From: Bdellovibrionota bacterium
GTDB taxonomy: Bacteria > Bdellovibrionota_C > UBA2361 > SZUA-149 > CAZDWZ01
Reading direction: 5' to 3'
Length of the DNA: 32,000 nucleotides
Assembly (NCBI GenBank): GCA_046328905.1
Contig: JAXLVP010000001.1
Span: forward strand, 2,294,815-2,326,814
Both the position numbers and the translations under genes were made by a program. A model generated the notes under the pieces. It was not told where the DNA came from. It worked only from the letters and a program-made list of their open reading frames with translations, and searched no databases. Positions 17,346 through 30,425 of the stretch are shown one piece after another; positions within the stretch are counted from its first letter, which is position 1; every line of letters begins with the position of its first letter.

Positions 17346-18194
17346 TCACTCCTGCGTGAGCTGCTTGTACGCTCTCGGCCGGCGGTTTTCGAAGAAACGC
17401 CATCCTTTGCGCACTGCAGCAGAATGATCGAGATCGACCTGGCAGACAAGCACTTGTTCGTCGTTGCCTCCGCGCACGAGGGTCTTTCCGAAGGCATCGC
17501 AAACGAAGGAGCCGCCCCAGAAGGTGGTGTCTCCTTCGGTGCCGACCCGGTTGACCGCGGCGACGACGAGCGCATTTGCGATTGCGTGACCGCGCTGGAC
17601 GTTTTCCCACGCCTCCTGCCAGCTTCCTTCGGCTTCCGGAATTCCTTTCACCGTGCCGATGGCGGTTGGGTAAAAGATGATGTCCGCTCCGAGGAGAGCT
17701 GTGGATCGCGCTGCCTCCGGATACCACTGGTCGTAGCAGATGAGCACTCCGACGTTCGCCTTTTTTGTTTCGAAGATCCGAAACCCCGTATCGCCGGGTG
17801 CAAAGTAGTGCTGCTCATAGAACCCCGGGTCGTGGGGAATATGTGTCTTGCGATAGCTTCCGATCTGTTTCCCTCGCGGGTCAAAGAGAAGCGACGTGTT
17901 GAAGTATTTATCTCCGGCTCGCTCATGGATGGAACCGCCGACGAGCGTCACCTTCGCTTCCTGAGCGACCCTGGAAAGAGCCGACATGGTGTTGCCTGCA
18001 GCTTCCTCGGCGTATTCGAAGCCGGCATCTTCGATGGTGCAAAAGTATGGGCTGGTGAACAGCTCGGGCAGGCAGACGATCTCAGCGCCCTGGGAGGCAG
18101 CTTCGCGAACCATCTGTGCAGCTTTCTCTCGGTTCTTTGCCGCCGAGCGGTCCATGCTCATCTGCACTAAACCTAACGTGACCGGACGTGACAT
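17346..18194 (-). CDS. aguB: N-carbamoylputrescine amidase (carbon-nitrogen hydrolase family)
   Basis: Start trimmed to ATG 18194 (MSRPVTLGLVQM...), which is preceded by GAGGAG. YRKTHIPHDPGFYEQHYFAPGDTGF and VGVLICYDQWYPEAAR...IIFYPTAIG closely resemble AguB/CPA-type nitrilase-superfamily enzymes. Confidence 0.8.
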   Translation of the reverse strand: MSRPVTLGLVQMSMDRSAAKNREKAAQMVREAASQGAEIVCLPELFTSPYFCTIEDAGFEYAEEAAGNTMSALSRVAQEAKVTLVGGSIHERAGDKYFNTSLLFDPRGKQIGSYRKTHIPHDPGFYEQHYFAPGDTGFRIFETKKANVGVLICYDQWYPEAARSTALLGADIIFYPTAIGTVKGIPEAEGSWQEAWENVQRGHAIANALVVAAVNRVGTEGDTTFWGGSFVCDAFGKTLVRGGNDEQVLVCQVDLDHSAAVRKGWRFFENRRPRAYKQLTQE

Positions 18195-18288
18195 AGCTTT
18201 TCTCCTCAGCCGTTTTCCAAGCGTGGCGGAAGCTCCGGGCTCTGACCTGGAGCTTTTCAGGAGCCACGGTTTTCCAGCGATTCTTAAA

Positions 18289-19914
18289 CTATCTTTCGAC
18301 GAACAGATCAACGAATTGAAAGGTTCGACCGTCAAAAAGCCCGAGATCGCTGAGCTTCAGGTCGGGAATCACGAGGAGCGCGAGGAAAGACAGAGTCATG
18401 AAAGGCGACGGCAGGCTGCATCCCAGCTTCTTCGAGAGCAGGTCGAGCTCTTCGTAGGCGTTGCCCACTTTGTATCCGTCGTCAGCAGACATGAGCCCGG
18501 CGATCGGGAGGGGAACGACAGAGCGCGTACCGTTACAGGACAGCGACACTCCACCGTCGTTCTCGATCACGAGGTTGATGGCGTCCGCAATTTCGTCATC
18601 ACCGGCTCCAATCGCGACGATATTGTGGCTGTCATGTGCTACGCTCGATGCCAACGCCCCGCGCTTCAGACCGAATCCGGTTGCAAAGGCAATGGCCGGT
18701 GGAGCAGCTTTGTAGCGGTTGACAACGACGAGCTTGAGGAGGTCGTGCTCCGGATCGCTCACTGCACAGCCGTTCATTATGCGGGCCTTCATCGTCTGCT
18801 CTTTGGTGATGAGCTGACCGGGTAAAGCTTCGATGACCCGGATTGAAGATTTTCCGGCTGGGAGCGCAAGTTCGCCAGGCGAAATATTTGCGCAAGAAAA
18901 ATTGTTGATGAGAGAGATCGGCTGGCGGTCGATCAACGACTTCCCATGTTCAGCTACTTTTTTGCCGTCGATGTAGGTTGCGAGAACATTCAGCGTTCTG
19001 AGACTGTCCATCACAATGAAATCTGCGGGATCTCCTTCCTGAAGCAGTCCGATCGGCAGACCGTAGTGCTTCACCGGATTGAGTGAAGCGGCGCGCAGCA
19101 CGGAGAAGAGCTCGTGCCCACCCGCCAGCGCTCGTTTTACGAGTTGGTTGATGTGCCCCGCTACAAGATCATTCGGGTGTTTGTCGTCCGAGCAAAACAT
19201 GATTCGTTCCGGAAACTCGCGCAGCAGGCCGATGAGCGCCTCGAAGTTCTTCGCGGCGCTGCCTTCGCGAATGATGATGGACATTCCGGCGCGGATTTTG
19301 TCGAGAGCCTCGTCGGCGGTGAAGCACTCATGGTCGGTGGTGATACCGAACGAAGCGTATCTTGCGGCATCTTCACCTCTCAGCCCGGGGGCATGCCCGT
19401 CGATGACTTTGCCCCTTTTTTTTGCCGACTGAAGCTTGGCGTGCACCTCGGTATCCCCGAAGAGCACGCCCGGAAAGTTCATCATCTCTGAGAGATAACG
19501 GATCTCCGGCAGCGAAAGCAGCTCATCGACCTCCGCTGCGGTGATTGCGGCACCGGCGGTCTCGAATGTAGTCGCCGGCACGCAGGACGGGGCGCCGAAA
19601 TTGAATTTGAAAGGAACAGTTTTGCCGTTCTCAATCATCCAGCGAACGCCCTCGACACCAAGCACGTTTCCGATCTCGTGCGGATCGGAGACCGTTCCTA
19701 CGGTCCCATGAACGACAGCGAGGCGTGCGAACTCGGACGGCGCGAGCATCGAGCTTTCAATATGAACGTGTGCATCGACGAAGCCGGGGAGGATGACCTG
19801 GTCTGGAGCGGCATGTAGCCGAGTAACTTTCGCTACGCGGCCGTCAGCTATCTCTAGCTCTCCGGGGAAGATCGCTTCGGCGAGTACGTCGACAATCTGT
19901 CCGGAGATTTTCAT
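18289..19914 (-). CDS. ade: adenine deaminase
   Basis: Start trimmed to ATG 19914 (MKISGQIVDV...). LPGFVDAHVHIESSMLAPSEFA...GTVGTVSDPHEIGNV is the amidohydrolase metal-binding region typical of Ade. Length is about 541 aa. Confidence 0.85.
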   Translation of the reverse strand: MKISGQIVDVLAEAIFPGELEIADGRVAKVTRLHAAPDQVILPGFVDAHVHIESSMLAPSEFARLAVVHGTVGTVSDPHEIGNVLGVEGVRWMIENGKTVPFKFNFGAPSCVPATTFETAGAAITAAEVDELLSLPEIRYLSEMMNFPGVLFGDTEVHAKLQSAKKRGKVIDGHAPGLRGEDAARYASFGITTDHECFTADEALDKIRAGMSIIIREGSAAKNFEALIGLLREFPERIMFCSDDKHPNDLVAGHINQLVKRALAGGHELFSVLRAASLNPVKHYGLPIGLLQEGDPADFIVMDSLRTLNVLATYIDGKKVAEHGKSLIDRQPISLINNFSCANISPGELALPAGKSSIRVIEALPGQLITKEQTMKARIMNGCAVSDPEHDLLKLVVVNRYKAAPPAIAFATGFGLKRGALASSVAHDSHNIVAIGAGDDEIADAINLVIENDGGVSLSCNGTRSVVPLPIAGLMSADDGYKVGNAYEELDLLSKKLGCSLPSPFMTLSFLALLVIPDLKLSDLGLFDGRTFQFVDLFVER

Positions 19915-20271
19915 GCGCTGTTCCTTCTCAAAAGCCCTCACGCCGCACAGCCTGTGTCGGTATCCATAACGTCTTAGGCGAGTCAGAAAAAGACCTCGTT
20001 CGCGGTTGTGACCCCCGGAATCGCGGGTTCCGAGTGGGAAGTACTAGCCCTTGAAATGTTTCGGTTTTTCGCAGGTCGGAGCGCGGCTGTTGTCAGCGGT
20101 TCGTGACAGAACCTGATCTATCGCAGGGTTTACCCATCACCCCCTGAAACATCACAGCATAACTTAGTTGAGATCCGAGGGTAGTTTTCTCGGGTTATGT
20201 GCGACGGTCTCTTAGCGGGACTCCGGTCCCAAATTTCATATGGAGTAGTGAATTGCTTTTTTAAAGGTTTC

Positions 20272-20484
20272 TCAAGGTTTTTTGTTCATCCATTTCCTCT
20301 TCGTCTTGTTGTCGACATGTGTTCGTTGATCTCTCGCTTCACAACGTTTCACTGATTTAAACATCTCTTCAATTTTCCACTCGGTCGCTAGCTCGTTGAC
20401 GTCCTTGGGATGCGAGATCTCGCATTCGAAGCACGTCGGCGTGCCCGCTCCTAGGTGGAGTTGAGGGCGTTTCCGCCGATTCAT
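20272..20484 (-). CDS. questionable small basic ORF (70 aa) in an AT-rich stretch
   Basis: The ORF track gives MNRRKRPQLHLGAGTPTCFECEISHPKDVNELATEWKIEEMFKSVKRCEARDQRTHVDNKTKRKWMNKKP. I see no convincing RBS and recognise no family. It may simply be non-coding promoter or leader DNA of the 20526 gene. Confidence 0.25.
   Translation of the reverse strand: MNRRKRPQLHLGAGTPTCFECEISHPKDVNELATEWKIEEMFKSVKRCEARDQRTHVDNKTKRKWMNKKP
20410..20425. promoter_or_regulatory. 16-bp perfect palindrome ATGCGAGATCTCGCAT (18 of 20 bp over 20408-20427)
   Basis: Read directly from the sequence. It lies ~100 nt upstream of ATG 20526, just downstream of a TTGACG hexamer (20396-20401). It is a candidate operator or stem-loop. 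Confidence 0.35.
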
Positions 20485-20525
20485 CGGATTCAGTGTCCCC
20501 AGTTTCGAAGAAAGAGGTTTCGATC

Positions 20526-21335
20526 ATGTTGAACAATCTGCGCAGCCGCCTGTCCGCGTCGCCCCGCGCCCGTCAGTACACGCGCGACGGCATCACCGCC
20601 GGCCTCACGGGTCTGGCGATCCTCGTCGTCCTGCCGGCGCTCTACCACTACAGCTCCGCCCGCCTGGTCGCGGGCTGGCTCGTGGTGGTCGCGATCCTGG
20701 TCATGGGTTACCTCAAGCGCGGCTCGTACGTGCCCCCCCAGCGCAACTGGTGGATCACGGCGGGCTACATCGGGGTCTTCGCCATGGCGCTCGTGACGCT
20801 CGGCTGGTTCGGCGTCCACAAGCAGCTCCCGTCGGTGCAGCAGGTCCAGTCCGCTCTGCCGGACGTACCCGCCATCCCGGCGCTCAGCTACTGGTGGGTG
20901 AAGGCCGTCGCCGGCCTGCTGGCCGTGGTCCTCGGGATCATGGCGGTGCGCGGCGCGATCCGCTCGCGCATGCGCGTCTGGCAGCTCGGCACCGCCATCG
21001 CCGTCATCGCGCTGTTCTGCGTGGCCTTCGGCTTCGTGCACTTCGGCACCGCCAGCCCCTCCTCCGACGTCGCGACCGTCGGCCAGAACCCGGATCTCCC
21101 GGGCTTCGCGGCCTACGTCTCGTGGCAGAACGAGAAGGACCCGTCGAAGCCCGTCACGCCGAAGCTCTACCGAGAGTTTCTGCGCAACGGCTCCGACGCG
21201 GACAAGAACGCCGTGCACGACCGACAGGATCAGCTGCTCGCGGATTTCGGTCTCAGGCTCGAGGACGGTCGGTTGATCGCGGTCAACCCGACCGGCGTCA
21301 CCAACCTCAAAGACCTGACCACCGCGATGCCGTAA
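20526..21335 (+). CDS. hypothetical 5-TM membrane protein with extreme GC3 (compositionally foreign)
   Basis: ATG 20526 is preceded by AGAAAGAGG. The 269-aa product has five hydrophobic helices and then a ~90-aa soluble tail. By hand count only ~15 sense codons end in A or T. The long shadow ORFs on the other frames are typical of a real high-GC gene. Confidence 0.7.
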   Translation: MLNNLRSRLSASPRARQYTRDGITAGLTGLAILVVLPALYHYSSARLVAGWLVVVAILVMGYLKRGSYVPPQRNWWITAGYIGVFAMALVTLGWFGVHKQLPSVQQVQSALPDVPAIPALSYWWVKAVAGLLAVVLGIMAVRGAIRSRMRVWQLGTAIAVIALFCVAFGFVHFGTASPSSDVATVGQNPDLPGFAAYVSWQNEKDPSKPVTPKLYREFLRNGSDADKNAVHDRQDQLLADFGLRLEDGRLIAVNPTGVTNLKDLTTAMP

Positions 21336-21349
21336 GCGCTGTCGCCCCT

Positions 21350-21380
21350 GGCGCTACTCCCCCGTAGCGCCTTGTATTCT
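21350..21380 (+). terminator. putative intrinsic terminator after the high-GC gene
   Basis: GGCGCTAC (21350-21357) and GTAGCGCC (21364-21371) form an exact 8-bp stem with the loop TCCCCC. TTGTATTCTCT follows. Confidence 0.55.
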
Positions 21381-21386
21381 CTGGGG

Positions 21387-21440
21387 GTGGATGGCCGGTT
21401 TAAAACACCGGTTAGAGCAATTCACGCTCCATCCACTTTT
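21387..21440 (+). other. nested stem-loop element with T4 tail upstream of the first giant ORF
   Basis: GTGGATGG (21387-21394) pairs with CCATCCAC (21429-21436). Inside this stem is a smaller hairpin, CCGGT-TTAAAAC-ACCGG (21395-21411). TTTT follows at 21437-21440. It could be a second terminator or a leader RNA structure. Confidence 0.35.
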
Positions 21441-21530
21441 ATCGCGCGCTTCCTCCGGCGATACAGGTAGGGATCAGCACACCATAATGATTTTAGTAAG
21501 AAACGCTCCGAATTGCGACGCGAAGGATGT

Positions 21531-24500
21531 ATGGGGAACGGTAACGGACCAATAAGAAATCTAGTGAGTGCCATCCGTCATCGACATTGCGAACCCGCGT
21601 GTCAGCCGGTGACATGTCAACCTGTGGTCTATGAATCTGTTGTCTGCCAGCCGACGGTTCAAGTTCCCGCTTATCAACCGGCGTTGAGTCATTCCGAGCA
21701 ACTCAGTCAGAACACCCGTCGCCTTTACACCGAAGGCAAGCGCGACGCAGCCAAGACCGGGCCCGCCCCGGAAGGGACCAACCTCTACTACTTCTCTGAA
21801 GGGCAGCTCTACGACTCGAACGGCGCTCGCATCGGATCGATGGCGCTCGACCCGAAAACCTCGCTCGCCGGAAAAGATACAATTACGACTCCGGGATGGT
21901 TGCAAAACGATCGCGGTCAAAACTGGAACTTTACGCAACAGAACGGGCAGCCCGTATTCGTCGACCAATACGGGCGCGCATCGAAGGCCGAAATTCGGAT
22001 TGGCGCACCTCCCGGAATGAAGGCGACGATGGAGTACCACGTAGCCGATATCATGGTTACGGATCCTCGATACTGTCAGGGCGTTCTCTCGATCGCTCGC
22101 CATGCCGGAAACATCATCGTCTACAAACCTGCCGACCAGGTAAAGACCGAAAGCCTTGATCCAAAAGCTGTGCAGCAGCTCTTCGATTCGCGAACAGGTC
22201 GAATCGAGCTTCCGTCGTCGGGTGGGAAAAAGAGTTTCGATGTGCACCATACTGCGCAGAACGATGGGGCAGACTACGTCTACCTGATGAGCACCGATGG
22301 GACCGAACAGGTTCGGCTCTCCCGCTCTAAAGCAGATGGGACCTATCAGCTCGAACGTCAGTTACATCAGGCCAACCAATGGACCGATTGTTACGGTCGC
22401 CGCATGTACGGGAACGTCGGATGGGTGCCCGACACGAACGTTCAAATTCCAACCGCTGCGGCTCAACAGCCGGGCCGAGTTCTGCCTTCATCGCAAATAC
22501 CGGACCCGAACCCTTCCGAGGCTCCGACCCCGCAACCTCCATCGGTTCCAGTGCCCGATCCGAACGCCGGTCCGCGCCGAGAACCGCAGCCAGCGATGCC
22601 TCGGCCATCGACGGCGCCTGTTCCTGAGGAACCGCCGGCTACCGAGCCTACACCGCCGCCGGAAGTACCTCCGGCAACACCGGGTCCGCGACGTGCCAAT
22701 GTCACCGCTGATGATGGAACTCGCAGAGCGAATGTCGCCCCAGATGGCGAGCCTGACGGAGGCCGCCGGGCGAATGCTGTGCCGGATCCAACTCGAAGAG
22801 CAAACGTGGCTCCAGATCCAAGCGGTGCGGCATCGGCACAACCCGATCCTACACGCCGTGCAGTGGTCGCACCGGACTCAAGCGGTGCTGCCGCGGCGCA
22901 ACCCGATCCGACGCGCCGAGCCGTGGTGGCTCCAGACTCAAGTGGTGCTGCTGCGGCACAACCCGATCCTACACGCCGTGCAGTGGTGGCTCCGGACGCA
23001 AGCGGTAGCCCCGCGGCGCAACCCGATCCGACGCGCCGAGCCGTGGTCGCTCCGGACGCAAGTGGTGCGGCATCGGCACAACCTGATCCGACGCGACGCG
23101 CAGCGGTGGCTCCGGATGCAAGCGGTAGCGCTGCTGCACAACCCGATCCTACGCGAACGGCGGTAGTAGCGCCGGACGCGACTGGCGCAACCGCCCCGCA
23201 ACCCGATCCGACGCGCCGCGCAGCGGTGGCTCCGGATGCAAGCGGTAGCGCTGCTGCACAACCCGATCCTACGCGAACGGCGGTAGTAGCGCCTGACGCG
23301 ACGGGCGCAGCCTCCCCGCAGCCAGATCCGACACGTCGCGTAGCGGCAGCTCCAGACGCAAGCGGTAACGCCGCGGCGCAACCTGATCCTTCGCGAACGG
23401 CTGTAGTAGCGCCCGACGCGAGCGGCGCAGCCGCCCCGCAGCCAGATCCGACACGCCGCGCAGCGGTGGCTCCGGATGCTAGCGGTACTGCCGCAGCGCA
23501 ACCTGACCCAACACGACGAGCGACGGTGACTTCCGGTGCGACCGGAAACCCCGTAGCGCAGCCGGATGCTACGCGGCCCGCAGGCGTTGCACCCGATTCT
23601 CCAGCTTCAGTATCCCCGACCGAGCCACGCAGAGCACGTGTGGCTCCTGATGGCGCCGGTGAGGCGCCCGCACCGAATCCTGACGATGGTGTTCGTCCGG
23701 TTCCTCCCGCAGAAAATCGGGACGATTCGCGGCCTCGAGAGCCCGTGGATCCGACACGGGTCGCACGAGCTCGCTCAGCGCAGGTTGGCGTTACGCCTCG
23801 AACGACCGAGACCATCGAGATCCTCCCCGTCACCGGTACTCCGGTCCCAGTTACCGTTGGCCAGGGCGGACTACTGCCGATCGGGCTCGATCCCACCGGC
23901 GCGCTTACTTTTAGAGTCGCCGGGCAGCAAATTCCTCTCCGTGTCGACGCGAGAGGTACAGTGCCTCTGAGTCTCGGTCCGAATGGAGAGCTCGCAGTCG
24001 ATAGCGCAGCCGCCAGTCAATTCGTTCCTGACTTTCTCGAACGGATGTCGGCACCGTCGCAAGTGCGGCTTGGTGGCGCACCTCCGCGCCAGAACTCGGG
24101 CTTCAATTTACTCACCTCTTCCGGAAGTTCGAGGACTTTGAATCCGTTGACGCCCGATCGCGACACGCCAAGCTTATTGCTTTCCCGAGGTGGGCTCAGC
24201 TTCCAGCTTGGAGCGAACGCGCTCACGCCCGTTCAGTTTGATTCGGCGACTGGTACCTTCAGCACGGACAACCGTCCCGCTTCCGGCGCCCTGCCGATCC
24301 AACGTTCGCTGGACGTGGGATCGGTGTTCGAGATCCCGCTTCAGGTCGCCTCGGACGGCAGCATACGGATAGCGCCGACAACCGGCCGACCGCCGTTCGC
24401 GGTTGATCAATATGGTATGGTGCGGCTCCGGCTGAACCGGACGAGCCCAATCAAGGTCGGCCAAGATGGAACAGCCGCTCTCGCCGTCTCTCCATCCGGC

Positions 24501-24713
24501 TATTTGCAATTCAGGGACGCGACGATGAACCCGCCCGTGATGCGAATCATGGATACGCTCACGATCTCAGACGGGACGGCACCTGGACCGCAGACTGTTG
24601 AGAGCGCAGGCGTGGCGAGCCCGAGAAATACCGTTCCAACTGGAATTCCTGTATCGGTTGACCCAGACGGTCGCCCGCGGCTCGATCTCTCCTCGCTGGT
24701 CGTGCCGAAGTAA
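21531..24713 (+). CDS. giant hypothetical protein: Cys/Gln/Pro N-terminal motif, globular region, 20-aa tandem repeat array, Gly-punctuated beta-repeat C-terminal region
   Basis: A single open frame of 1066 codons from TTG 21513. ATG 21531 (MGNGNGPIRN...) follows an AAGGA site. There is no signal peptide or TM segment. Substitutions between repeat units fall at third codon positions of this frame, which supports it as the coding frame. No family recognised. Confidence 0.8.
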   Translation: MGNGNGPIRNLVSAIRHRHCEPACQPVTCQPVVYESVVCQPTVQVPAYQPALSHSEQLSQNTRRLYTEGKRDAAKTGPAPEGTNLYYFSEGQLYDSNGARIGSMALDPKTSLAGKDTITTPGWLQNDRGQNWNFTQQNGQPVFVDQYGRASKAEIRIGAPPGMKATMEYHVADIMVTDPRYCQGVLSIARHAGNIIVYKPADQVKTESLDPKAVQQLFDSRTGRIELPSSGGKKSFDVHHTAQNDGADYVYLMSTDGTEQVRLSRSKADGTYQLERQLHQANQWTDCYGRRMYGNVGWVPDTNVQIPTAAAQQPGRVLPSSQIPDPNPSEAPTPQPPSVPVPDPNAGPRREPQPAMPRPSTAPVPEEPPATEPTPPPEVPPATPGPRRANVTADDGTRRANVAPDGEPDGGRRANAVPDPTRRANVAPDPSGAASAQPDPTRRAVVAPDSSGAAAAQPDPTRRAVVAPDSSGAAAAQPDPTRRAVVAPDASGSPAAQPDPTRRAVVAPDASGAASAQPDPTRRAAVAPDASGSAAAQPDPTRTAVVAPDATGATAPQPDPTRRAAVAPDASGSAAAQPDPTRTAVVAPDATGAASPQPDPTRRVAAAPDASGNAAAQPDPSRTAVVAPDASGAAAPQPDPTRRAAVAPDASGTAAAQPDPTRRATVTSGATGNPVAQPDATRPAGVAPDSPASVSPTEPRRARVAPDGAGEAPAPNPDDGVRPVPPAENRDDSRPREPVDPTRVARARSAQVGVTPRTTETIEILPVTGTPVPVTVGQGGLLPIGLDPTGALTFRVAGQQIPLRVDARGTVPLSLGPNGELAVDSAAASQFVPDFLERMSAPSQVRLGGAPPRQNSGFNLLTSSGSSRTLNPLTPDRDTPSLLLSRGGLSFQLGANALTPVQFDSATGTFSTDNRPASGALPIQRSLDVGSVFEIPLQVASDGSIRIAPTTGRPPFAVDQYGMVRLRLNRTSPIKVGQDGTAALAVSPSGYLQFRDATMNPPVMRIMDTLTISDGTAPGPQTVESAGVASPRNTVPTGIPVSVDPDGRPRLDLSSLVVPK
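22782..23561 (+). repeat. 13 tandem 60-nt (20-aa) in-frame repeats, consensus PDPTRRAVVAPDASGAAAAQ, with 120-nt superperiod; degenerate copies extend to ~22684 and ~23690
   Basis: Because the listing is 60 nt per line, the repeat aligns in columns across lines 22801-23521. Units start at 22782, 22842, 22902 and so on. A ~73-nt stretch at 23101-23173 is identical to 23221-23293. Confidence 0.95.
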
Positions 24714-24741
24714 TCTCACGAACATTCGCATACCCTCTCGA

Positions 24742-24821
24742 AGCGGCACGGCGCCGCTCGGGGGGACGTGCGCCTTCATCTGATGGAATCTGCCCACATC
24801 AGACCGGATCTGCGCATCCGG
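24742..24821 (+). promoter_or_regulatory. three consecutive short stem-loops in the 226-nt spacer between the two giant ORFs
   Basis: Three stem-loops read directly from the sequence: AGCGGC/GCCGCT (24742-24758), TCTGATG/CATCAGA (24779-24803) and CCGGAT/ATCCGG (24804-24821). None has a T-run tail. A TTGAAA hexamer follows at 24829-24834. Confidence 0.35.
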
Positions 24822-24939
24822 CACCCTCTTGAAAAATTATGCATAACCTATGTATGCGCGAGTGTTTTTTGTTTTCGGGAAGGAGCCGCTTCTCAATCGT
24901 CTCGTGCAATGGTTGTTCGAAAGTTCCTACGAGGTTTCT

Positions 24940-27900
24940 ATGGGTGGTCCCGCAGCGGCAACAAAATCGGAAAATCCCGGATTAGATCTATCGGCTCCGG
25001 TCCGTCAGGCACCGCCCGCCGAACGTCAACCCGCTCAGCTACGAGATGCAAGTGTCGCGCTACCCCCTTCGGCGGCAATTCAAGTTCAACTAGAAAAGGA
25101 GAAGCTTGAGCGGACGCTGGGCACACCTCGCGCCGCGGCAGTCCTCGAAGAAGCGAAACGGGCTGAGCGTGTGCTCGAAGAGATCCAACGCCAATCTGCG
25201 ATGCTCGACAAGGAGTCGCTCGCCAAGTGGAAACCGTATATCGCTTCCGCCGCTGCGAAGATGAATCAAGCATTGGCTGCGGGGGACTTTGCCGGGTTCG
25301 AGAGCCAGCTTTCCACCTTCAATAAGCATCTCGAGCGACTTCAAAAATACATGAGCTACGAGCGAACAGAAGGGCTCGTCGCCGTGCATGCCGAAAGCGG
25401 CGTGCGGATTTACAGCAAAGACGGCGCTGTTTGGCTCGTGACTCCGGACGCTCAGGCATTTGCCGATTATCGCTCTGGCGCGAAGGCCAGAGAGCTCGCT
25501 GGATTTGTGAAAGGAGTCACCGGAGTTTCACTCGATCCGAATCATGCCGTGTATCAAGCCTCCGGCCCGGCCAGAGACGGGCAGACTCTTCTTGCCTGCC
25601 GGATGGATCTCCTGAGCCTGCAGGACGGCAGAAACGAGTTCGGTGTGCGAACCACCCTTCGACGAGATTCGGGCGCGCTTTCGCAAGATATCAACTTCAC
25701 TCGAGAGCAGGTTTCCGGCGGCCGGATTGTAGCGGATGCGACTCGCGGTTTCGGGCATGCGAACGGCTTTCCGTCGATTGCGTTCAGCGCTCCTGGCGTT
25801 CAATCGGGACCTGTCGGAAATCCCGGTTCTGCAGCAGCGCAGCCGCAACAGCTTGCTGCGATTCCAGCCGGTGCGAACGGCCCGGCGCCGGTGCCAGTCA
25901 TACCCGTGTCGCGCGCCACAGCCGCACAAGAACATCCGCAGCCTGACGGGCGTGACGCCGGCGCTGCCATTCGAACCGCTACCCTTGTGACGGCGGCACT
26001 TGGGCAAAATGGCCCGAGCCCGATCACGATGACCACTTTGGCGGAGGCGGCGCAGCGTGTGAATCCGTTGCCTTATCTTGCGGGGCGCCGGGAGGCGGCT
26101 CTCGACAGAGTCATTGAGGAGACGGAGAAGCGGATTGCGAAGGATCTCAAAATTTTAAAGAAGCCCGAGGAGATCGCTGAAGGTCTGAAAGAGGCGACTG
26201 CCGGAGGAGAACGATTCGGCAGAGCATATGCGACTCGCAGAGCCGCGCTCGATGCGGAGCTCGCGAAAGCGGCCACTCCGGCAGAAAAAAGCGCGGTGCA
26301 GGTGAGAATCAATGCGCTGGAAGACCTCCGGGCCCGGGAGGTCATTTATCGTCGCGACCTCCTTGAAAGACAGGTTAGCAGCGCTACGAAGCAGAAGGAT
26401 GTGAAGCTGGCGCGCGATACGAAGCGAACCCTACTCGAGATGAAGGATGACGTCGATCGCGCTTATCAGCATCAGATTCAGAGAGCGACTGCCGACGGCA
26501 AACCGATTGATAAACTGGAAGCGGCAAGAGGGAAGTTCGCCTCAAGGTGCACAACGCTTGCAGACGAGCTTCAAACACTTCGGGGACGCCTGACCAGATG
26601 GGCCGGTGGCGGCCTTTCGTGGGTTGCCGATCATACCGGTTTGAGCGCGCTCAGCGGACGCGTTTCGTCGGCGCTGCATGTAGACATCAAGGTCAGCTCA
26701 CTTACGGGTTGGAACAGGTTCTGGGACTGGGTCGATAAGCGGCAAGCTGCTGCCGTTTCGAAGACATTGGCGGATACAGAACGCTTGCTTCAGACCGGCG
26801 TCGGCACCCTGACCGCTGACGAAGCGGCTTCACAGCTGGCTCTGATGGCGAAGAGACAGCAAACTTTCCAGTCGAGACTCGCTGTCCTCGAGGCGCAGCA
26901 GAAAGGCGGTGCTACCGGGCTCGACACAACGATTCAAGAGCTCAAAGACGGACGCGCGCGATGTGTTCTTCGCCAGAGGGAGATCCTCGAACGCCAAATT
27001 GGCGAGGCAACCGCCGCCGGCGAAGATTGCACTGCTCTGAAATCAAAGCTGTACGGCACGATGAAGCCCGAAGTGGACGAGGCTCACGCGCAGTTGAAAA
27101 TGAAGTCCAAGCCTGAAGCAACTGCCTACAATAAGGCATGCAAGGACTACGCACCGGAGCTTGAGCGTCAGCGAGTGGCAGAGCTGGTAGCCGACACGAA
27201 AACCGTCCGCGCTGCAGCTGATGCGGTTGTGAAGGCAGAAGGCTCACTGAGTAGCGCTGCAGCTGGAACGCCTGCTCACGCTGAGGCGACTGCAGAAGTT
27301 GCCCTCGCAAAAGCTCGACTCGATCTTGCGCAAAAGGACGCTCGAATCGCGCAGCTCGAGGAGAAGCTCAAGCTCAATCCGGCTGATGCTGATGCGACTG
27401 CCGAGGTTCAGCGACTCAGGGTTGATCGCGCGCGTTCAGCGACTGCGGAGCGGGCTTGCGGAGTCGAGCGGGCTTCGAAGCGGGTAGCGCGAATTGATGC
27501 CGATATTGCGGACATCGATGCGGAGCTTGCGAAACCGGACCAATCCGCAAAAGCGATTGCCGAGCTGGAGAAGCGCCGCGGTACTCTGCTTGCGGAGCAG
27601 TCAGAGCTTCGGACACAAACCGAATCTCTCGCCGATACCAAGAAACAGGCTGGCGTTGCGGTGAAGTTGGCTGACCTCGAGCAGGATCTTGCCCAACAGC
27701 GCGCAGAGCGAGCAAAAGCAACTGATCCTGCCGCCCAAAAAACCCTCGACCAGCGTATCGCTGAGTTGGAAGGAAAGCTCAGAGCAGCGAATATCGAGCT
27801 CATCAGGCGCGACCTCGCCGCGACGGAACAGAGCTTGACCCGGCTCCAGGGAGAGCTGGCGGCAGTTGACGCTGAGCTCGGGACACTCACCGGTCAAAAG

Positions 27901-29835
27901 ACGGCACGCGTTACCGAACTCGAAAAGAGCCGTCAACGTCTGCAGGGTAAGATTAAGGGAATGGAGGATACGAAGGAGTTCCTCAACGGACAGCGCGAGA
28001 TTTATTCGTTGGAGTCGAAATGCGCGAAGGCTGGAACCCAACTGGCAGCGAAGGAGGCCGCGCTTGAGACTGCAAAGAAAGCAACCACTCAGGATCCTGC
28101 ACTGATTGCCGCTCTCGAAGGCGAGGTTCAAACTCTTCGTCAAACGTCGACTACTCTTCAACAGGAGCTCACAACGGCCAGAACATCATTCCGCACAACT
28201 TGGTCAGCACGTCTTACTGCGGCGCGCGCAAACTTCGCCGAGCGGGTAATGGGGCGTGTGCAGGGTTACGCTCAGCAGCATCCGATGAAAGCCGCGACGA
28301 TTCTCGCGGTAGCGACCGAATCGCTCCGCGGCGCCGGTATGGCGGACTACGATCCCGAGACCCGGCACACCGTACTGCCTTCGCTGATCTTTCTGCTCAA
28401 TCAGGATTTCGACCAGTGGGCCTACACCACCGAACAGGTTGGAGTTCCCGGAGCGGTCGCCCTTGAAGCTGGTAGCCATGGTGGAAACGCATTGATCATG
28501 AGCGGTGGCGCATACGGGCTGTATAGAATCGGTTCGACAGCCGTAACCTCCAGAGCCGGTCAGGCGGTGGTCACGCGAATTGCCGGTTCGCGGCTTGCGC
28601 AATCCAAGTTTGTCACCTGGGCTGCTCCTAAGGTCGCAAGCTATGCCGGCCCGGCGCTTGTCGGCGTCGGCGCCGCGGCGGACGGGTATTTCACATTCGC
28701 CGACGGAAGCTTCGTCAATTTCAATGACCGTCAGGTTGCAACCGCTACGACGAGCCCAATTGTCGCTGGAGCGGTCGGAGGCGGCGTCTTCTTCGGTCCT
28801 CCCGGAGCGATCGTCGGTGCGGTCGGCGGTGCCATCGGAGAGGTCGCCGGTGTCACTCGTGGTCTCTTCGTGCTTGATGCGGAGGCTACCGCTGACTACA
28901 AAAAACGGAGTGTTCGAGAGAGCATTGAGCTTGCAGAGCAGGGATTTGTTTTCGACGCCAAGGACCCTGCCTTGAGATCACGCAGTCCTGTTCTGTCTGC
29001 TGAGGAGAAAGAGGTGATCGACGGTCACGCTCGAGTTCGCTTCTTACGGACTATTTTCAGCCGTGACCCGAACGTCGGTTTGTCGACTGAGCAGCTGAAA
29101 GCCGCCGGTTTCGTTACCGACCCGGGGAAAACACCGGAGGAGCACGAGGCCGCCGAGCGACATAATTGGGAAAGGTCGGAAGCCCTCTTTACTGCCGGTT
29201 ATTTCAGCGGTGCGCCGATCAATTCTCTCGACCCGGAGCTCCGCGGACGACTCGAACGCGAGCGAGCGGATGCTCATCGGCACTACACGGATCTCTATCA
29301 GACAAGTATGCGTCGCACGTACACCGAATTCAACAAGACCAGCACGCCGGCTGTGGCAGCTTGGGACATTTTAAACACCTACACATTCGGTTGGACTGGC
29401 CCCGGGGGACGTGGGGATCAGGGAGGAGTAGCTATCTCTTCCGAATTTCATGATCGTCTTGCAGTGGTCGCAAAAGAGTTTGCTGAAAAGTTTGGTACCC
29501 GAGACTCGGCAGCAGTCGGGGAAGACCGGGCCGCGCTTGCGGAAGAACAGTGGGGATTTCTCGCGAGCAGGTTCCCTCAGATCGGTCTCATTTTCTCAGA
29601 TACGGAAGCTCGCAGACTCTTCGTTAACGGTTTCTCGATGCTCGCGGGAGAAAAGGGAAAACAATTGGAGGATTACGCGTTGATGAGCGATATCGATCGA
29701 TGCGCCACGGGGGTTGCCATCCTGAGAAACTCCCGCGATGACTTCGCAGTGCAGGTTCAACACCGGCTCGCGCGTGGGCTGACTGACGATCTCGCAGACG
29801 GAGCCGTTCTTGATCAGTTACTCGGTACCAACTAA
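24940..29835 (+). CDS. giant hypothetical coiled-coil protein with glycine-zipper-like hydrophobic module and unassigned C-terminal domain
   Basis: The open frame runs from ATG 24850 (1661 aa). I prefer ATG 24940 (MGGPAAATKSE...) because GAGG lies 5 nt upstream and the first 30 codons look non-coding. About 26070-28250 is heptad-like and rich in A/E/K/L/R/Q. 28440-28885 is Gly/Ala/Val-rich and hydrophobic. No family recognised. Confidence 0.8.
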   Translation: MGGPAAATKSENPGLDLSAPVRQAPPAERQPAQLRDASVALPPSAAIQVQLEKEKLERTLGTPRAAAVLEEAKRAERVLEEIQRQSAMLDKESLAKWKPYIASAAAKMNQALAAGDFAGFESQLSTFNKHLERLQKYMSYERTEGLVAVHAESGVRIYSKDGAVWLVTPDAQAFADYRSGAKARELAGFVKGVTGVSLDPNHAVYQASGPARDGQTLLACRMDLLSLQDGRNEFGVRTTLRRDSGALSQDINFTREQVSGGRIVADATRGFGHANGFPSIAFSAPGVQSGPVGNPGSAAAQPQQLAAIPAGANGPAPVPVIPVSRATAAQEHPQPDGRDAGAAIRTATLVTAALGQNGPSPITMTTLAEAAQRVNPLPYLAGRREAALDRVIEETEKRIAKDLKILKKPEEIAEGLKEATAGGERFGRAYATRRAALDAELAKAATPAEKSAVQVRINALEDLRAREVIYRRDLLERQVSSATKQKDVKLARDTKRTLLEMKDDVDRAYQHQIQRATADGKPIDKLEAARGKFASRCTTLADELQTLRGRLTRWAGGGLSWVADHTGLSALSGRVSSALHVDIKVSSLTGWNRFWDWVDKRQAAAVSKTLADTERLLQTGVGTLTADEAASQLALMAKRQQTFQSRLAVLEAQQKGGATGLDTTIQELKDGRARCVLRQREILERQIGEATAAGEDCTALKSKLYGTMKPEVDEAHAQLKMKSKPEATAYNKACKDYAPELERQRVAELVADTKTVRAAADAVVKAEGSLSSAAAGTPAHAEATAEVALAKARLDLAQKDARIAQLEEKLKLNPADADATAEVQRLRVDRARSATAERACGVERASKRVARIDADIADIDAELAKPDQSAKAIAELEKRRGTLLAEQSELRTQTESLADTKKQAGVAVKLADLEQDLAQQRAERAKATDPAAQKTLDQRIAELEGKLRAANIELIRRDLAATEQSLTRLQGELAAVDAELGTLTGQKTARVTELEKSRQRLQGKIKGMEDTKEFLNGQREIYSLESKCAKAGTQLAAKEAALETAKKATTQDPALIAALEGEVQTLRQTSTTLQQELTTARTSFRTTWSARLTAARANFAERVMGRVQGYAQQHPMKAATILAVATESLRGAGMADYDPETRHTVLPSLIFLLNQDFDQWAYTTEQVGVPGAVALEAGSHGGNALIMSGGAYGLYRIGSTAVTSRAGQAVVTRIAGSRLAQSKFVTWAAPKVASYAGPALVGVGAAADGYFTFADGSFVNFNDRQVATATTSPIVAGAVGGGVFFGPPGAIVGAVGGAIGEVAGVTRGLFVLDAEATADYKKRSVRESIELAEQGFVFDAKDPALRSRSPVLSAEEKEVIDGHARVRFLRTIFSRDPNVGLSTEQLKAAGFVTDPGKTPEEHEAAERHNWERSEALFTAGYFSGAPINSLDPELRGRLERERADAHRHYTDLYQTSMRRTYTEFNKTSTPAVAAWDILNTYTFGWTGPGGRGDQGGVAISSEFHDRLAVVAKEFAEKFGTRDSAAVGEDRAALAEEQWGFLASRFPQIGLIFSDTEARRLFVNGFSMLAGEKGKQLEDYALMSDIDRCATGVAILRNSRDDFAVQVQHRLARGLTDDLADGAVLDQLLGTN

Positions 29836-29870
29836 CGCTTATCGTCTTTCCGTAAAGCAAGGACCTTCCG

Positions 29871-30425
29871 GTGGAAGAAATCGACACCCGCGACGAATCG
29901 CTGAGTAGTGATAACACCCGCTCCCTCTTCTGGGGCTTGAGCTGCTTTGCGATGCTCGTCCCCACGCTCGCAATGGTATTTGCCTGGCTCTACGCCTCGT
30001 ACATGGAGATCTCTTTCAGCAAACACCAGATCAAAGAGATGGTCTTCGCGACATGGGGAATAACCCTCGCTGGGTTACTCCTCTTTGGTTTTTTCAACCG
30101 TCGCGGCGCCGGAAGGAGGCGTTCGGATCCGTCTGATATTATGCACGCGAGTGCTGCCGAGCTGACCGCAACGAAATGGGAGCAGCGAAAGGCGACCCGG
30201 CTCTTCGTTCGGTCCTACCTTGTCTCGTTGATGCTTCCCTGGGCAGGAATCGCCCTGGCACTTATCCCGCTTGTGGCAATGCACACTCCGTTCGGTCATC
30301 GAGAGGCAGTGCTTGTCTTGCAGATCTACGGAATCTCGGCGGCAGTGCTTGTCGTACGGGCGGCCATCCGGTCGCGTGGCGAGCGGATGGTGTATCTTTC
30401 CACCCCTGAAGGCTTGAAAAGCTAA
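29871..30425 (+). CDS. hypothetical 4-TM membrane protein immediately downstream of the giant coiled-coil gene
   Basis: 184 aa. GTG start with AAGGA 7 nt upstream, 35 nt after the giant ORF stop. It has four hydrophobic helices and a basic loop, RRGAGRRRSD. No family recognised. Confidence 0.6.
   Translation: MEEIDTRDESLSSDNTRSLFWGLSCFAMLVPTLAMVFAWLYASYMEISFSKHQIKEMVFATWGITLAGLLLFGFFNRRGAGRRRSDPSDIMHASAAELTATKWEQRKATRLFVRSYLVSLMLPWAGIALALIPLVAMHTPFGHREAVLVLQIYGISAAVLVVRAAIRSRGERMVYLSTPEGLKS

What the first reader, a model, noticed from the sequence alone, without database searches (positions are those of the whole stretch)
20200..30425. Accessory-looking block: two giant unassignable proteins bracketed by multi-pass membrane proteins
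SEEN: This block sits between recognisable core genes, ade ending at 19914 and EVE/aminotransferase from 30426. About 600 nt of mostly non-coding, locally AT-rich DNA precedes a same-strand run of four genes:
- a 5-TM protein (20526-21335)
- a ~1060-aa protein (21531-24713)
- a ~1630-aa protein (24940-29835)
- a 4-TM protein (29871-30425, only a 35-nt gap)

Neither giant has a Sec signal peptide, a lipobox or any catalytic motif I can name. Both open with short Gly-rich, disordered-looking N-termini (MGNGNGP..., MGGPAAAT...).

KNOWN: Giant repeat or coiled-coil proteins without Sec signals are typical of non-classically secreted effectors, adhesins and filaments. Small membrane proteins directly downstream of a membrane-active protein are typical immunity genes.

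INFERENCE: The block is a self-contained module. It could be a surface or secreted filament/effector pair with dedicated membrane partners, or a membrane-targeting toxin with immunity. No secretion ATPase, integrase or nuclease lies in the window, so both export route and mobility are unexplained.
Basis: partly seen in the sequence, partly recalled or inferred. Interest (0 to 1): 0.75.

Follow-up and report, generated by a model that had tools for sequence, protein, structure and literature searches.

The report
Four unrelated orphan genes, not a module
The four genes are real and match no described family, but they are not a conserved working unit. Only the 1631-residue protein has relatives: a rare, undescribed family of long helical proteins with a glycine-rich membrane-type segment, seen only in uncultured Bdellovibrionota, where the gene always stands alone.

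Summary
OBSERVATION: confirmed. Four same-strand genes lie between ade and the EVE gene:
- TM1, 20526-21335, 5 transmembrane (TM) segments
- G1, 21531-24713, 1060 aa
- G2, 24940-29835, 1631 aa
- TM4, 29871-30425, 4 TM segments

None hits Pfam, NCBIfam, PHROGs, PADLOC or PDB.

INTERPRETATION (self-contained module, or toxin plus immunity): not supported.
- G1 has no detectable homologue.
- TM1 and TM4 are singleton clusters at 90% identity and had no close relatives where I looked.
- TM1 is a composition outlier (GC3 0.94, against 0.58-0.75 for the other 17 genes) and is followed by a terminator-like hairpin.
- G2 belongs to a small family: 36 representatives among 1.84 billion proteins. Named members are only Bdellovibrionota, Bdellovibrionales or Oligoflexia MAGs, plus two labelled Pseudomonadota.
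- In nine other loci the G2 homologue sits alone among differing housekeeping genes. None holds a TM1, G1 or TM4 homologue. In the six loci with wide flanks there is no small multi-TM gene nearby.
- No integrase, tRNA or flanking repeats.
- Two relatives (ade 68-70% identical) keep synteny on one side of ade and differ on the block side.

BEST READING: a lineage-specific variable region. G2 is probably a membrane-associated long helical tether, anchored by a conserved uncharged glycine-zipper hairpin next to a novel all-helical C-terminal domain. This mechanism is inferred with low confidence.

The parts
19942..20525 (.). Non-coding spacer between the divergent ade and TM1 genes. It holds an imperfect palindrome at 20376-20459.
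   Evidence: No ORF of 80 aa or more. Sequence read. No Rfam family and no tRNA. Palindrome I1 with 45-nt arms, 71% complementary. No sigma-70-like promoter site was found here.
20526..21335 (+). TM1: a 269-aa protein with 5 predicted TM segments and a C-terminal soluble tail of about 90 aa. It is a composition outlier.
   Evidence: Hydropathy. No family hit. Singleton cluster U0136_10120. GC3 is 0.94, sharply bounded by its start and stop, z = 6.6 against the other 17 genes. No close relative in metagenome contigs.
21350..21371 (+). Terminator-like GC-rich hairpin 15 nt after the TM1 stop codon.
   Evidence: 8-bp stem with 6 G-C pairs, followed by a T-rich tail. The number of such sites in the region is no higher than in shuffles, so this is only suggestive.
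21531..24713 (+). G1: a 1060-aa orphan protein with no detectable homologue.
   Evidence: Translation. No family or PDB sequence match. No homologue in the 5.8-billion-protein search using its N- and C-domains. None in JGI metagenome contigs. Unrelated to G2 or its family.
21588..21659 (+). G1 residues 20-43: a Cys/Gln/Pro-rich segment (CEPACQPVTCQPVVYESVVCQP).
   Evidence: Seen in the translation. Only a sub-threshold Keratin_B2_2 match, E 0.021 and 15 bits against a cut-off of 27.
22662..23621 (+). G1 tandem array: 16 units of 60 nt, encoding 20 aa each (consensus QPDPTRRAVVAPDASGAAAA). A 120-nt super-period is present. The array lies inside a Pro/Ala-rich, probably disordered spacer of about 430 aa (residues about 330-760).
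   Evidence: TRF gives period 60 (11.6 copies) and period 120 (5.5 copies, 85% matches, 0% indels). The repeat finder family D1 shows strict 60-nt spacing. PD[PA][TS]R recurs 14 times at exact 20-residue spacing. Composition by 100-aa blocks.
23808..24710 (+). G1 C-terminal region (residues about 760-1060): Gly/Leu/Ser/Pro-rich with short repeats of the form phi-x-phi-xxx-G-x-phi-x-phi. Probably beta-rich.
   Evidence: The motif gives 9 overlapping matches (about 6 distinct sites) against 1.9 +/- 1.5 in shuffles. The motif was chosen after reading the sequence, so this is weak. No PDB or PHROGs match.
24940..29835 (+). G2: a 1631-aa member of an undescribed family restricted to uncultured Bdellovibrionota.
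   Evidence: Identical to 'MAG: hypothetical protein U0136_10130 [Bdellovibrionota bacterium]'. Its C-terminal 542 aa find 36 representatives among 1.84 billion proteins, 15 of them at E <= 1e-30. Source names.
25081..25719 (+). G2 N-terminal head (residues 48-260): a helical bundle (48-143) followed by a small alpha/beta domain (146-260). Only one subfamily shares it.
   Evidence: phmmer finds it in P0003/P0037, P0004, P0009, P0017 and P0023. Alignment A3. AF2 gives pLDDT 80-90 for residues 50-140 and 60-75 for 146-210. No PDB fold or sequence match.
26137..28254 (+). G2 long helical rod (residues about 400-1105). It is poor in Pro and Gly and rich in Ala, Leu, Glu, Lys, Arg and Gln. A module of about 45 aa is repeated at residues 471 and 678.
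   Evidence: Composition. Sub-threshold matches to the coiled-coil arms only of SMC (E 7e-6, 24 bits against 567), JetC (E 1e-5) and LmuB. A crude heptad test is weakly positive: 12% of windows have z>2 against 2-3% in two enzyme controls. Repeated module.
28255..29364 (+). Conserved core of the G2 family (residues 1106-1475). It comprises amphipathic helices, the glycine-zipper segment and the first part of the C-terminal helical domain.
   Evidence: This is the region matched in nearly all 36 family representatives. Conserved motifs are visible in alignment A1.
28747..28842 (+). Glycine-zipper segment (G2 residues 1270-1301, TTSPIVAGAVGGGVFFGPPGAIVGAVGGAIGE). It is 31-33 residues long, uncharged across the family, and has a central G-P-x-G turn.
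   Evidence: Zero charged residues in the family profile over this stretch. It is the only 19-residue window of family-averaged hydropathy reaching 1.4. Per-sequence view shows both flanks net acidic. G188, G192, P198, G200 and G204 are nearly invariant.
28864..29706 (+). G2 C-terminal all-alpha domain (residues about 1309-1589), predicted with confidence and without structural relatives.
   Evidence: AF2 with a 25-sequence alignment gives pLDDT mostly 86-96 over model residues 230-480. Foldseek against PDB (best E 0.58, TM about 0.1) and BFVD (best E 0.22) finds nothing. Profile search of PDB sequences finds nothing significant.
29871..30425 (+). TM4: a 184-aa protein with 4 predicted TM segments and an Arg-rich central loop. 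It starts 35 nt after G2 and ends where the convergent EVE gene ends.
   Evidence: Hydropathy. No family hit. Singleton cluster U0136_10135. No relative next to any other G2-family gene. Not related to TM1, BLASTP E 1.2.

Best explanation
The block is a lineage-specific variable stretch at a synteny break next to ade. It holds at least three independent pieces rather than one machine.

1. TM1 is a separately acquired or separately evolving membrane-protein gene. It has extreme GC3 and its own terminator-like hairpin.

2. G1 is a species-restricted orphan. It is built as a globular N-domain, then a Pro/Ala-rich spacer of about 430 aa (including 16 tandem 20-aa units), then a beta-repeat C-domain. 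That is the layout of an extended spacer or fibre-like protein.

3. G2 is the only piece with relatives. It belongs to an undescribed, rare family confined to uncultured Bdellovibrionota.

SHOWN for the G2 family:
- a variable N-terminal head
- a helical rod of variable length
- a conserved core of about 370 aa, in which amphipathic helices surround an uncharged 31-33-residue glycine-zipper helix-turn-helix
- a compact all-helical C-terminal domain with no relatives among solved or viral structures by Foldseek

INFERRED: the glycine-zipper hairpin and its neighbouring helices attach the conserved C-terminal end to a membrane. The rod projects the variable head roughly 100 nm away. G2 would then act as a membrane-anchored tether or scaffold, not as an enzyme.

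TM4 is probably co-transcribed with G2 (35-nt gap). It is a genome-specific neighbour, not a family-wide partner.
For: NOT A MODULE
- G2 homologues lie among differing housekeeping genes in nine other loci: L001, L002/3, L004=L035, L005/6, L056, L067, L069, L127 and L128. tblastn finds no TM1, G1 or TM4 relative in them.
- In the six loci held with 8-10 kb flanks (L001, L002, L004, L005, L127, L128), no small multi-TM ORF lies within 3 kb.
- G1 has no homologue.
- TM1 GC3 is 0.94 against a mean of 0.66 (sd 0.04). G1, G2 and TM4 are native-like, with RSCU distances of 0.085-0.12. A hairpin follows TM1.

VARIABLE REGION
- Relatives keep ade-CN_hydrolase-transglycosylase-DUF2784 at 55-71% identity but differ on the block side.

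G2 FAMILY AND ARCHITECTURE
- Family membership and domain layout.
- Names of members.

ANCHOR
- No charged residue across 25 sequences over 31-33 positions, with a GxxxGxxxG pattern and a central GP(x)G.

NOT AN ENZYME
- The invariant and near-invariant columns are almost all Gly or Pro. The exceptions are N320 (invariant) and H54 (nearly invariant).
- No catalytic family hit.

C-DOMAIN
- Confident, with no Foldseek neighbour in PDB or BFVD.
Against: - The tether mechanism rests on architecture alone. No localisation, partner or phenotype is known.
- The flanks of the glycine zipper are net acidic on both sides. That is atypical for an ordinary inner-membrane anchor. It fits a conditionally inserting hairpin or a buried helix of a soluble bundle equally well.
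- AF2 draws the zipper as part of one 71-residue helix at only moderate confidence, pLDDT 60-80.
- My heptad test for a canonical coiled coil is only weakly positive.
- Only nine neighbourhoods were seen, and some loci are just 8 kb long.
- TM1, TM4 and G1 were never searched with a full profile method, so distant homologues could exist.
Confidence: 0.45

Rival explanations
1. G2 is a membrane-permeabilising toxin and TM4 is its immunity protein. The G2 core would be a colicin- or Bcl-2-style 'inside-out' helical domain. Its buried uncharged hairpin would insert into a target membrane, and the 4-TM TM4 protein would protect the producer.
For: - The core is a run of amphipathic helices around an uncharged helix-turn-helix of 31-33 residues with acidic flanks.
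- TM4 is 184 aa with 4 TM segments and starts 35 nt downstream on the same strand.
- From my own knowledge, not tested here: the colicin A immunity protein is similar in size and topology.
- The best hits of the core profile and model, none significant, are to other Gly-rich membrane-active proteins: a crAss-like phage cargo protein, tape-measure proteins and microcin E492.
Against: - No TM4 homologue next to the G2 homologue in any of the nine other loci. In the six loci with 8-10 kb flanks, no small multi-TM ORF within 3 kb.
- No colicin or other toxin family hit.
- No fold match to any pore-forming domain in PDB.
- No lysis, secretion or receptor-binding module.
- The polarity is the reverse of polymorphic toxins: here the C-terminus is conserved and the N-terminus varies.
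Confidence: 0.15
2. G1 and G2 are a pair of non-classically exported surface filaments or effectors, directed at prey or at a eukaryotic host, with TM1 and TM4 as dedicated membrane partners.
For: - Neither protein has a Sec-type N-terminus. Both start with disordered Gly/Pro-rich peptides.
- Both have very long spacers between terminal domains.
- G2 subfamily members share a short conserved N-terminal peptide that could be an export or chaperone-binding signal.
- The family is confined to a phylum known for predators.
- Six of nine full-length N-termini, including G1, begin Met-Gly.
Against: - The two giants are unrelated and do not co-occur elsewhere.
- No secretion ATPase, chaperone or usher lies in the window or next to other family members.
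- TM1 is compositionally foreign and separately terminated.
- G1 lacks the signal peptide and the conserved N-domain that define the known Bdellovibrio surface fibres (PMC10769870).
- Only 3 of the 6 Met-Gly N-termini fit the loose PROSITE myristoylation pattern. I judged this from the sequences.
Confidence: 0.15
3. The whole block is a horizontally acquired genomic island.
For: - It sits at a synteny break beside ade.
- TM1 has GC3 0.94.
- GC rises to 0.62-0.70 inside G1.
Against: - No integrase, transposase, tRNA or flanking direct repeats.
- G1, G2 and TM4 have native-like codon usage: GC3 0.575-0.68 and RSCU distance within the range of the flanking genes.
- The GC peak inside G1 coincides with the Ala/Pro/Arg-rich repeat region. 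It shows in codon positions 1 and 2 (GC1 0.71, GC2 0.60), not in position 3 (GC3 0.575).
- G2 relatives are all in the same phylum.
Confidence: 0.1
4. G2 is a domesticated phage tape-measure or ejection protein: a long helix with Gly-rich hydrophobic segments and a C-terminal domain.
For: The top BFVD and PDB-sequence hits include tape-measure proteins, but none is significant (E 0.2-0.5).
Against: - No PHROGs hit.
- No phage gene near any family member.
- The family motif was not found in any real family member among 2.9 million viral contigs.
Confidence: 0.03

Closest known systems
Membrane-anchored coiled-coil tethers and polar scaffolds (for example Caulobacter TipN and PodJ, Vibrio HubP, eukaryotic golgins). 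This comparison is from my own knowledge.
   Same: A very long helical rod, a hydrophobic anchor at one end and a distinct head at the other. Lineage-restricted, fast-evolving, monocistronic genes with no enzymatic motif.
   Different: No sequence or fold relationship was found. The anchor here is an uncharged 31-33-residue glycine-zipper hairpin with acidic flanks, not a classical TM helix. It is followed by a conserved helical domain of about 330 aa. Localisation is unknown.
Colicin A/E1-type pore-forming domains with their 3-4-TM immunity proteins. This comparison is from my own knowledge.
   Same: A helical region of about 200 aa containing one long uncharged helical hairpin. In this genome a 4-TM, 184-aa protein is encoded directly downstream.
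   Different: No Pfam Colicin hit and no Foldseek match. The putative immunity gene is absent beside the other family members. No translocation, receptor or lysis functions. The protein is five to ten times larger.
Transmembrane glycine-zipper motifs, (G/A/S)xxxGxxxG, as in the VacA N-terminus and MscS TM3. This comparison is from my own knowledge.
   Same: G2 carries GxxxGxxxG runs (G200, G204, G208) in a fully uncharged, family-conserved segment. A weak profile hit to an MscS-domain chain covers the same stretch, E 0.9.
   Different: This is a motif, not a family. Nothing shows channel formation here.
Coiled-coil arms of SMC, MukB, JetC and LmuB
   Same: G2 residues about 786-1108 align weakly with the coiled-coil arms: TIGR02168 at E 7e-6, JetC at E 1e-5.
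   Different: Scores are far below the cut-offs, 24 bits against 567. No ATPase head, hinge or Walker motifs matched. This is similarity of composition only.
Bdellovibrio bacteriovorus MAT chimeric fibre proteins (PMC10769870)
   Same: G1 is a protein of about 1000 aa from the same phylum, with a long spacer and a repeat-rich, probably beta C-terminal part.
   Different: [quoted passage not shown] G1 has no hydrophobic N-terminus. It matches no solved MAT fragment or any other PDB chain.

Membership tests
Colicin-type pore-forming toxin with immunity protein | Sequence match to the pore-forming domain family (Pfam Colicin) or to a related toxin model | tested here: not met
   No such hit for G2 or for 25 family members in Pfam, NCBIfam or PADLOC.
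Colicin-type pore-forming toxin with immunity protein | A compact helical bundle of about 10 helices burying one hydrophobic hairpin | tested here: inconclusive
Colicin-type pore-forming toxin with immunity protein | A cognate small membrane immunity gene always adjacent | tested here: not met
   TM4 is adjacent only here. None of the nine other loci holds a TM4 homologue. In the six loci with 8-10 kb flanks no small multi-TM ORF lies within 3 kb.
SMC / MukB / JetC | N- and C-terminal ATPase head halves (Walker A and B, signature motif) and a hinge | tested here: not met
   Only model positions 670-952 (the coiled-coil arm) align, at 24 bits against a cut-off of 567. JetC likewise matches over the arm only.
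Bdellovibrio MAT fibre proteins | A signal peptide followed by the conserved beta-rich N-domain of about 130 aa (PMC10769870) | tested here: not met
   G1 has no N-terminal hydrophobic segment. Its N- and C-regions match no PDB chain at E < 0.05. The full-length MAT N-domain sequence itself was not available for a direct comparison.
Trimeric autotransporter or other Sec-dependent adhesin | An N-terminal signal peptide and a C-terminal beta-barrel anchor domain (YadA-like) | tested here: not met
   No signal-like segment. No adhesin or anchor domain in Pfam or NCBIfam for G1 or G2.
Genomic island or mobile element | Integrase or transposase, a tRNA or att-type flanking direct repeats, and foreign composition across the block | tested here: not met
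   No such gene in the window among the ORFs scanned. No tRNA. No flanking repeats. Only TM1 is a composition outlier.
Type III, IV or VI secreted effector | The cognate secretion system present in the genome, plus an adjacent chaperone or adaptor | not testable with these tools
   Only 32 kb of a 3.26-Mb contig is held. No chaperone-like gene lies beside G2 or its relatives.
Phage tape-measure or ejection protein | Match to a tape-measure family and location in a tail-gene cluster | tested here: not met
   No PHROGs hit. No phage neighbours. No family member in viral contigs. BFVD best E is 0.22.

The most novel reading that the evidence does not exclude
The G2 family is a new, phylum-specific class of membrane-inserting proteins of uncultured Bdellovibrionota. 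It would be a roughly 100-nm helical rod that carries a variable target-binding head. A glycine-zipper hairpin with acidic flanks would insert conditionally into a prey or host membrane, or into the predator's own membrane at the contact site. Export would be by a non-Sec route. G1 would be a co-opted, rapidly evolving fibre partner specific to this species.
Probability: 0.12. Interest if true: 0.7.

Novelty: new variant of a known kind. Interest (0 to 1): 0.3.

Why it matters
The proposed four-gene system does not hold up, so there is no new secretion or toxin-immunity module to report.

What remains is a previously undescribed protein family of 36 sequence clusters, all from uncultured Bdellovibrionota. 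It has a conserved glycine-zipper segment and a confidently predicted helical domain with no match among solved (PDB) or predicted viral (BFVD) structures by Foldseek.

If the family proves to act at the predator envelope or on prey membranes, it would add a component to the poorly known cell biology of predatory bacteria outside the model Bdellovibrio. As it stands, it is one of many lineage-restricted families of unknown function.

The extreme GC3 of TM1 is a clean small example of a single foreign-looking gene placed next to native orphan genes.

Tried and rejected
SEARCHES THAT FOUND NOTHING
- Full-length G2 in the word-indexed 5.8-billion-protein search returned only itself. The helical-rod words probably swamped the candidate list. 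The C-terminal fragment in the exhaustive HMMER search is what found the family.
- A chimeric query of the G1 N- and C-domains returned nothing, not even G1 itself. The exact G1 sequence is also absent from the collection.
- Exact look-ups of window proteins for source contigs failed.
- Single-protein scans found no close relatives: G2 in genome contigs, G1 in metagenome contigs, TM1 in metagenome contigs.
- Profile and fold searches of the G2 head (A3) gave nothing.
- Pfam on five long family members gave nothing.

TOOLS THAT FAILED OR WERE UNAVAILABLE
- The search for related loci with alignments A1 and A2 failed, because no stretch was conserved enough.

PARTIAL RESULT
- A degenerate DNA pattern for the glycine zipper gave 116 genome hits, of which only 4 are real family loci. 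In viral contigs it gave 3 hits, none real.

HYPOTHESES REJECTED
- TM1 and TM4 as paralogues. The shared 'VRxAIRSR' is a chance match, BLASTP E 1.2.
- G1 as related to G2 or to the alternative N-terminal heads of the family.
- The two 255-aa ORFs near P0003 and P0009 as a conserved partner.
- The antisense 477-aa ORF in the G1 repeats as a gene.

COILED-COIL TESTS
- Fourier analysis gave no clear signal.
- A first heptad score did not discriminate at all.
- The window-shuffle version was only weakly positive.
- I therefore call the rod 'helical, coiled-coil-like', not a proven coiled coil.

Full report
1. OBSERVATION

- TM1, 20526-21335
- G1, 21531-24713
- G2, 24940-29835
- TM4, 29871-30425

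Each stated start is preceded by a Shine-Dalgarno-like motif. Three of the four models are identical to public annotation of a MAG labelled 'Bdellovibrionota bacterium' (U0136_10120, _10130, _10135), on a contig of 3.26 Mb.

The flanks are ordinary metabolism genes. On the left are ade (TIGR01178, E 2e-177), a CN-hydrolase, a transglycosylase and a branched-chain amino-acid ABC system. On the right are an EVE-domain gene and an aminotransferase.

Hydropathy gives 5 TM segments in TM1 and 4 in TM4. G1 has none. G2 has a single strong segment, at residues 1274-1292, and neither giant has a hydrophobic N-terminus. None of the four proteins reaches threshold in Pfam, NCBIfam, PHROGs or PADLOC, and PDB sequence searches of the domains of G1 and G2 find nothing.

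2. ARE THE FOUR GENES ONE UNIT?

They are not related to each other. TM1 against TM4 gives E 1.2, and G1 against G2 gives no significant match.

Composition separates TM1 from the rest. Its GC3 is 0.94, and 0.83-1.00 in every 30-codon window, with sharp edges at its start and stop. The other 17 genes of the window, including G1 (0.575), G2 (0.593) and TM4 (0.681), lie between 0.575 and 0.748. That puts TM1 at z = 6.6.

A GC-rich hairpin with a T-rich tail follows TM1 at 21350-21371. The gaps TM1-G1 (195 nt) and G1-G2 (226 nt) are long. Only G2-TM4 (35 nt) looks co-transcribed.

There is no tRNA, no Rfam element, no integrase and no flanking direct repeat.

3. RELATIVES

G1
- Its N- and C-domains find nothing among 5.8 billion proteins.
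- They find nothing in JGI metagenome contigs.

TM1 and TM4
- Both are singleton clusters at 90% identity.
- TM1 has no close relative in metagenome contigs.

G2
- The full-length query found only itself.
- Its last 542 residues, searched exhaustively against 1.84 billion representatives, find 36 proteins, 15 of them at E <= 1e-30. Most are 800-2458 aa long, with the match at their C-terminal end.
- All come from metagenomes or MAGs. The only informative names are Bdellovibrionota, Bdellovibrionales and Oligoflexia, plus two MAGs labelled 'Pseudomonadota bacterium'.
- A degenerate DNA pattern for the most conserved motif found only four true family loci in one genome from each of 185,579 species.
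- The same pattern found none in 2.9 million viral contigs.

4. NEIGHBOURHOODS OF G2 HOMOLOGUES

Nine other loci were read (59/60, 92, 93). In every one the gene is monocistronic-looking, often with 500-700 nt of upstream spacer. It lies among unrelated housekeeping genes, for example:
- sulfatase, DUF188
- AbiEii, Na/Ca exchanger
- Y1 transposase, ArgRS
- MltF-like SLT, FGGY kinase
- ABC transporter, GH28
- TerB, trypsin

tblastn finds no TM1, G1 or TM4 relative in any of the nine. An ORF-by-ORF hydropathy scan of the six loci held with 8-10 kb flanks finds no small multi-TM ORF within 3 kb of the G2 homologue.

5. SYNTENY

The nearest ade homologues are only 68-70% identical, so no close relative is available.

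Two of their contigs keep the order ade-(variable insert)-CN_hydrolase-transglycosylase-DUF2784-ABC transporter. For one of them, tblastn confirms 55-71% protein identity.

On the other side of ade, where the block lies here, one contig has a divergent small TM ORF at the contig end. The other has Fic, SDR and small unknown genes. So the block sits at a synteny break. It is 'accessory' in that weak sense, but it carries no mobility hallmarks.

6. ANATOMY OF G2 AND ITS FAMILY

The alignments (A1 with 25 sequences, A2, A3) show the following layout.

(a) N-terminus. It is disordered and Pro-rich. One subfamily shares a short peptide of the form phi-x-phi-x-G-[TS]...L-x-phi-P.

(b) Head. It differs between subfamilies. 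G2's type is shared by P0003/37, P0004, P0009, P0017 and P0023. AF2 predicts a helical bundle plus a small alpha/beta domain, but only residues 50-210 have usable confidence. Foldseek finds nothing.

(c) Rod. It varies in length and is about 700 aa in G2.
- It is poor in Pro and Gly.
- It gives sub-threshold matches to the arms of SMC, JetC and LmuB only.
- A module of about 45 aa is repeated within it.
- The heptad signal is weak.

(d) Conserved core, with these motifs:
- ADYSPxxxHxxxPxL
- GVGAAxxGYxTFSDGxF
- SPIxxGAxxGxxxGPxGAxxGAxxGAxGE
- KRxVRES
- LGF
- HNWxR
- YxDLYxRS
- FPxL

Within the core, the third motif forms a stretch of 31-33 residues with no charged residue in any of 25 sequences. 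It has a central G-P-x-G and GxxxGxxxG spacing. Both flanks are net acidic.

(e) C-terminal domain. It is all-alpha and is predicted at pLDDT about 90. It has no neighbour in PDB (best E 0.58, TM about 0.1) or BFVD.

The invariant and near-invariant columns are almost all Gly or Pro. N320 (invariant) and H54 (nearly invariant) are the only polar ones. This argues for a structural or binding role rather than catalysis.

7. ANATOMY OF G1

- A Cys/Gln/Pro-rich N-terminal segment.
- A globular-looking N-domain, residues about 60-310.
- A Pro/Ala-rich spacer of about 430 aa. It contains 16 in-register 60-nt units, with 85% matches at the 120-nt super-period and no indels.
- A C-terminal region of 300 aa with short phi-x-phi-xxx-G-x-phi-x-phi repeats. 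This last point is weak and was defined after the fact.

The known Bdellovibrio surface fibres (MAT proteins) have a signal peptide and a conserved N-domain (PMC10769870). G1 has neither, and it matches no solved fragment.

8. MOST LIKELY EXPLANATION

SHOWN
- The block is not a conserved module.
- G2 belongs to an undescribed family restricted to Bdellovibrionota, whose genes stand alone.
- TM1 is compositionally distinct.

INFERRED
- G2 is a membrane-associated helical tether or scaffold. Its conserved C-terminal end is fixed to a membrane by the glycine-zipper hairpin, and its variable head is held about 100 nm away. The 100 nm assumes 700 aa at about 0.15 nm per residue.
- TM4 may be a genome-specific co-transcribed neighbour.

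I put about 0.8 on the 'not a module, new family' part and about 0.35 on the tether mechanism.

RIVALS
- Pore-forming toxin with TM4 as immunity, 0.15. This reading is attractive because of the uncharged hairpin, the acidic flanks and the 4-TM neighbour. It is contradicted by the absence of any such neighbour elsewhere and by the lack of toxin-family or fold matches.
- Non-Sec secreted effector or fibre pair, 0.15.
- Whole-block genomic island, 0.1.
- Phage tape-measure derivative, 0.03.

9. COMPARISON WITH WHAT IS KNOWN, AND VERDICT

No defining feature of any considered family was met (see the membership table). The resemblances to coiled-coil membrane tethers, to the colicin hydrophobic hairpin and to glycine-zipper motifs are analogies of architecture only.

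The family itself is undescribed. It has no curated model, and three full-text literature searches found nothing.

I rate the finding as real genes in an ordinary kind of genomic situation: lineage-specific orphans in a variable region. The modest point of interest is the new family. Overall interest is 0.3.

Noticed in passing
window 20526-21335: TM1 has GC3 of 0.94, sharply bounded by its start and stop codons. Every other gene in the window has GC3 of 0.575-0.748. This suggests a single recently acquired gene from a high-GC donor, or extreme codon selection.
   Followed up: partly
window 21531-24713: G1 is absent from the 15-billion-protein collection in any form (no exact match, no self-hit), although its three neighbours are present. 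The locus-tag series also leaves room for U0136_10125. It may be annotated as a pseudogene or have been filtered out. Unexplained.
   Followed up: partly
window 21531-21551 and 24940-24963; proteins P0014, P0017, P0021, P0037: Six of nine full-length N-termini begin Met-Gly. These are four of the six family homologues whose N-termini were read, plus G2 itself and the unrelated G1. Only three fit the loose PROSITE N-myristoylation pattern. This is a possible lead to host-dependent lipidation, or it may be chance.
   Followed up: no
window 24979-25074 (G2 residues 14-45); alignment A3: A short N-terminal peptide of the form phi-x-phi-x-G-[TS]...L-x-phi-P is conserved in the G2 subfamily ahead of the first helix. 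It could be a docking or export signal.
   Followed up: no
window 26350-26487 and 26971-27108 (G2 residues about 471-516 and 678-723): A helical module of about 45 aa, (V/I)xxR(R/Q)xxLLE(R/K)Q(V/I/L)...(V/I)(D/E)xAY, is repeated inside the rod. It recurs one to three times in subfamily members P0004, P0009, P0017 and P0037.
   Followed up: partly
window 20376-20459: An imperfect 45-nt-arm palindrome (71% complementary) lies in the spacer upstream of TM1. No Rfam match and no promoter-like site were found there.
   Followed up: no
window 22463-23896 (- strand): A 477-aa antisense ORF spans the G1 repeat array. Its translation is low-complexity Gly/Ala/Ser/Arg text. It is an artefact of stop-free GC-rich repeats.
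   Followed up: yes
L123 2352-3527 and the JGI contig of P0051 (6937-8564): In relatives, the interval between ade and the CN-hydrolase gene is itself variable. One has a BD-FAE-like gene there. The other has a ParD antitoxin and small ORFs. In this window the two ORFs, as listed from their first possible start codons, overlap (17346-18335 and 18289-19914). Both sides of ade therefore seem prone to insertions.
   Followed up: partly
window 22806-23567: The G1 repeat has a 120-nt super-period. Two variant 20-aa units alternate, ...TRRAAVAPDASGSAAAQ and ...TRTAVVAPDATGAxxPQ. This implies expansion by duplication of a two-unit block.
   Followed up: no
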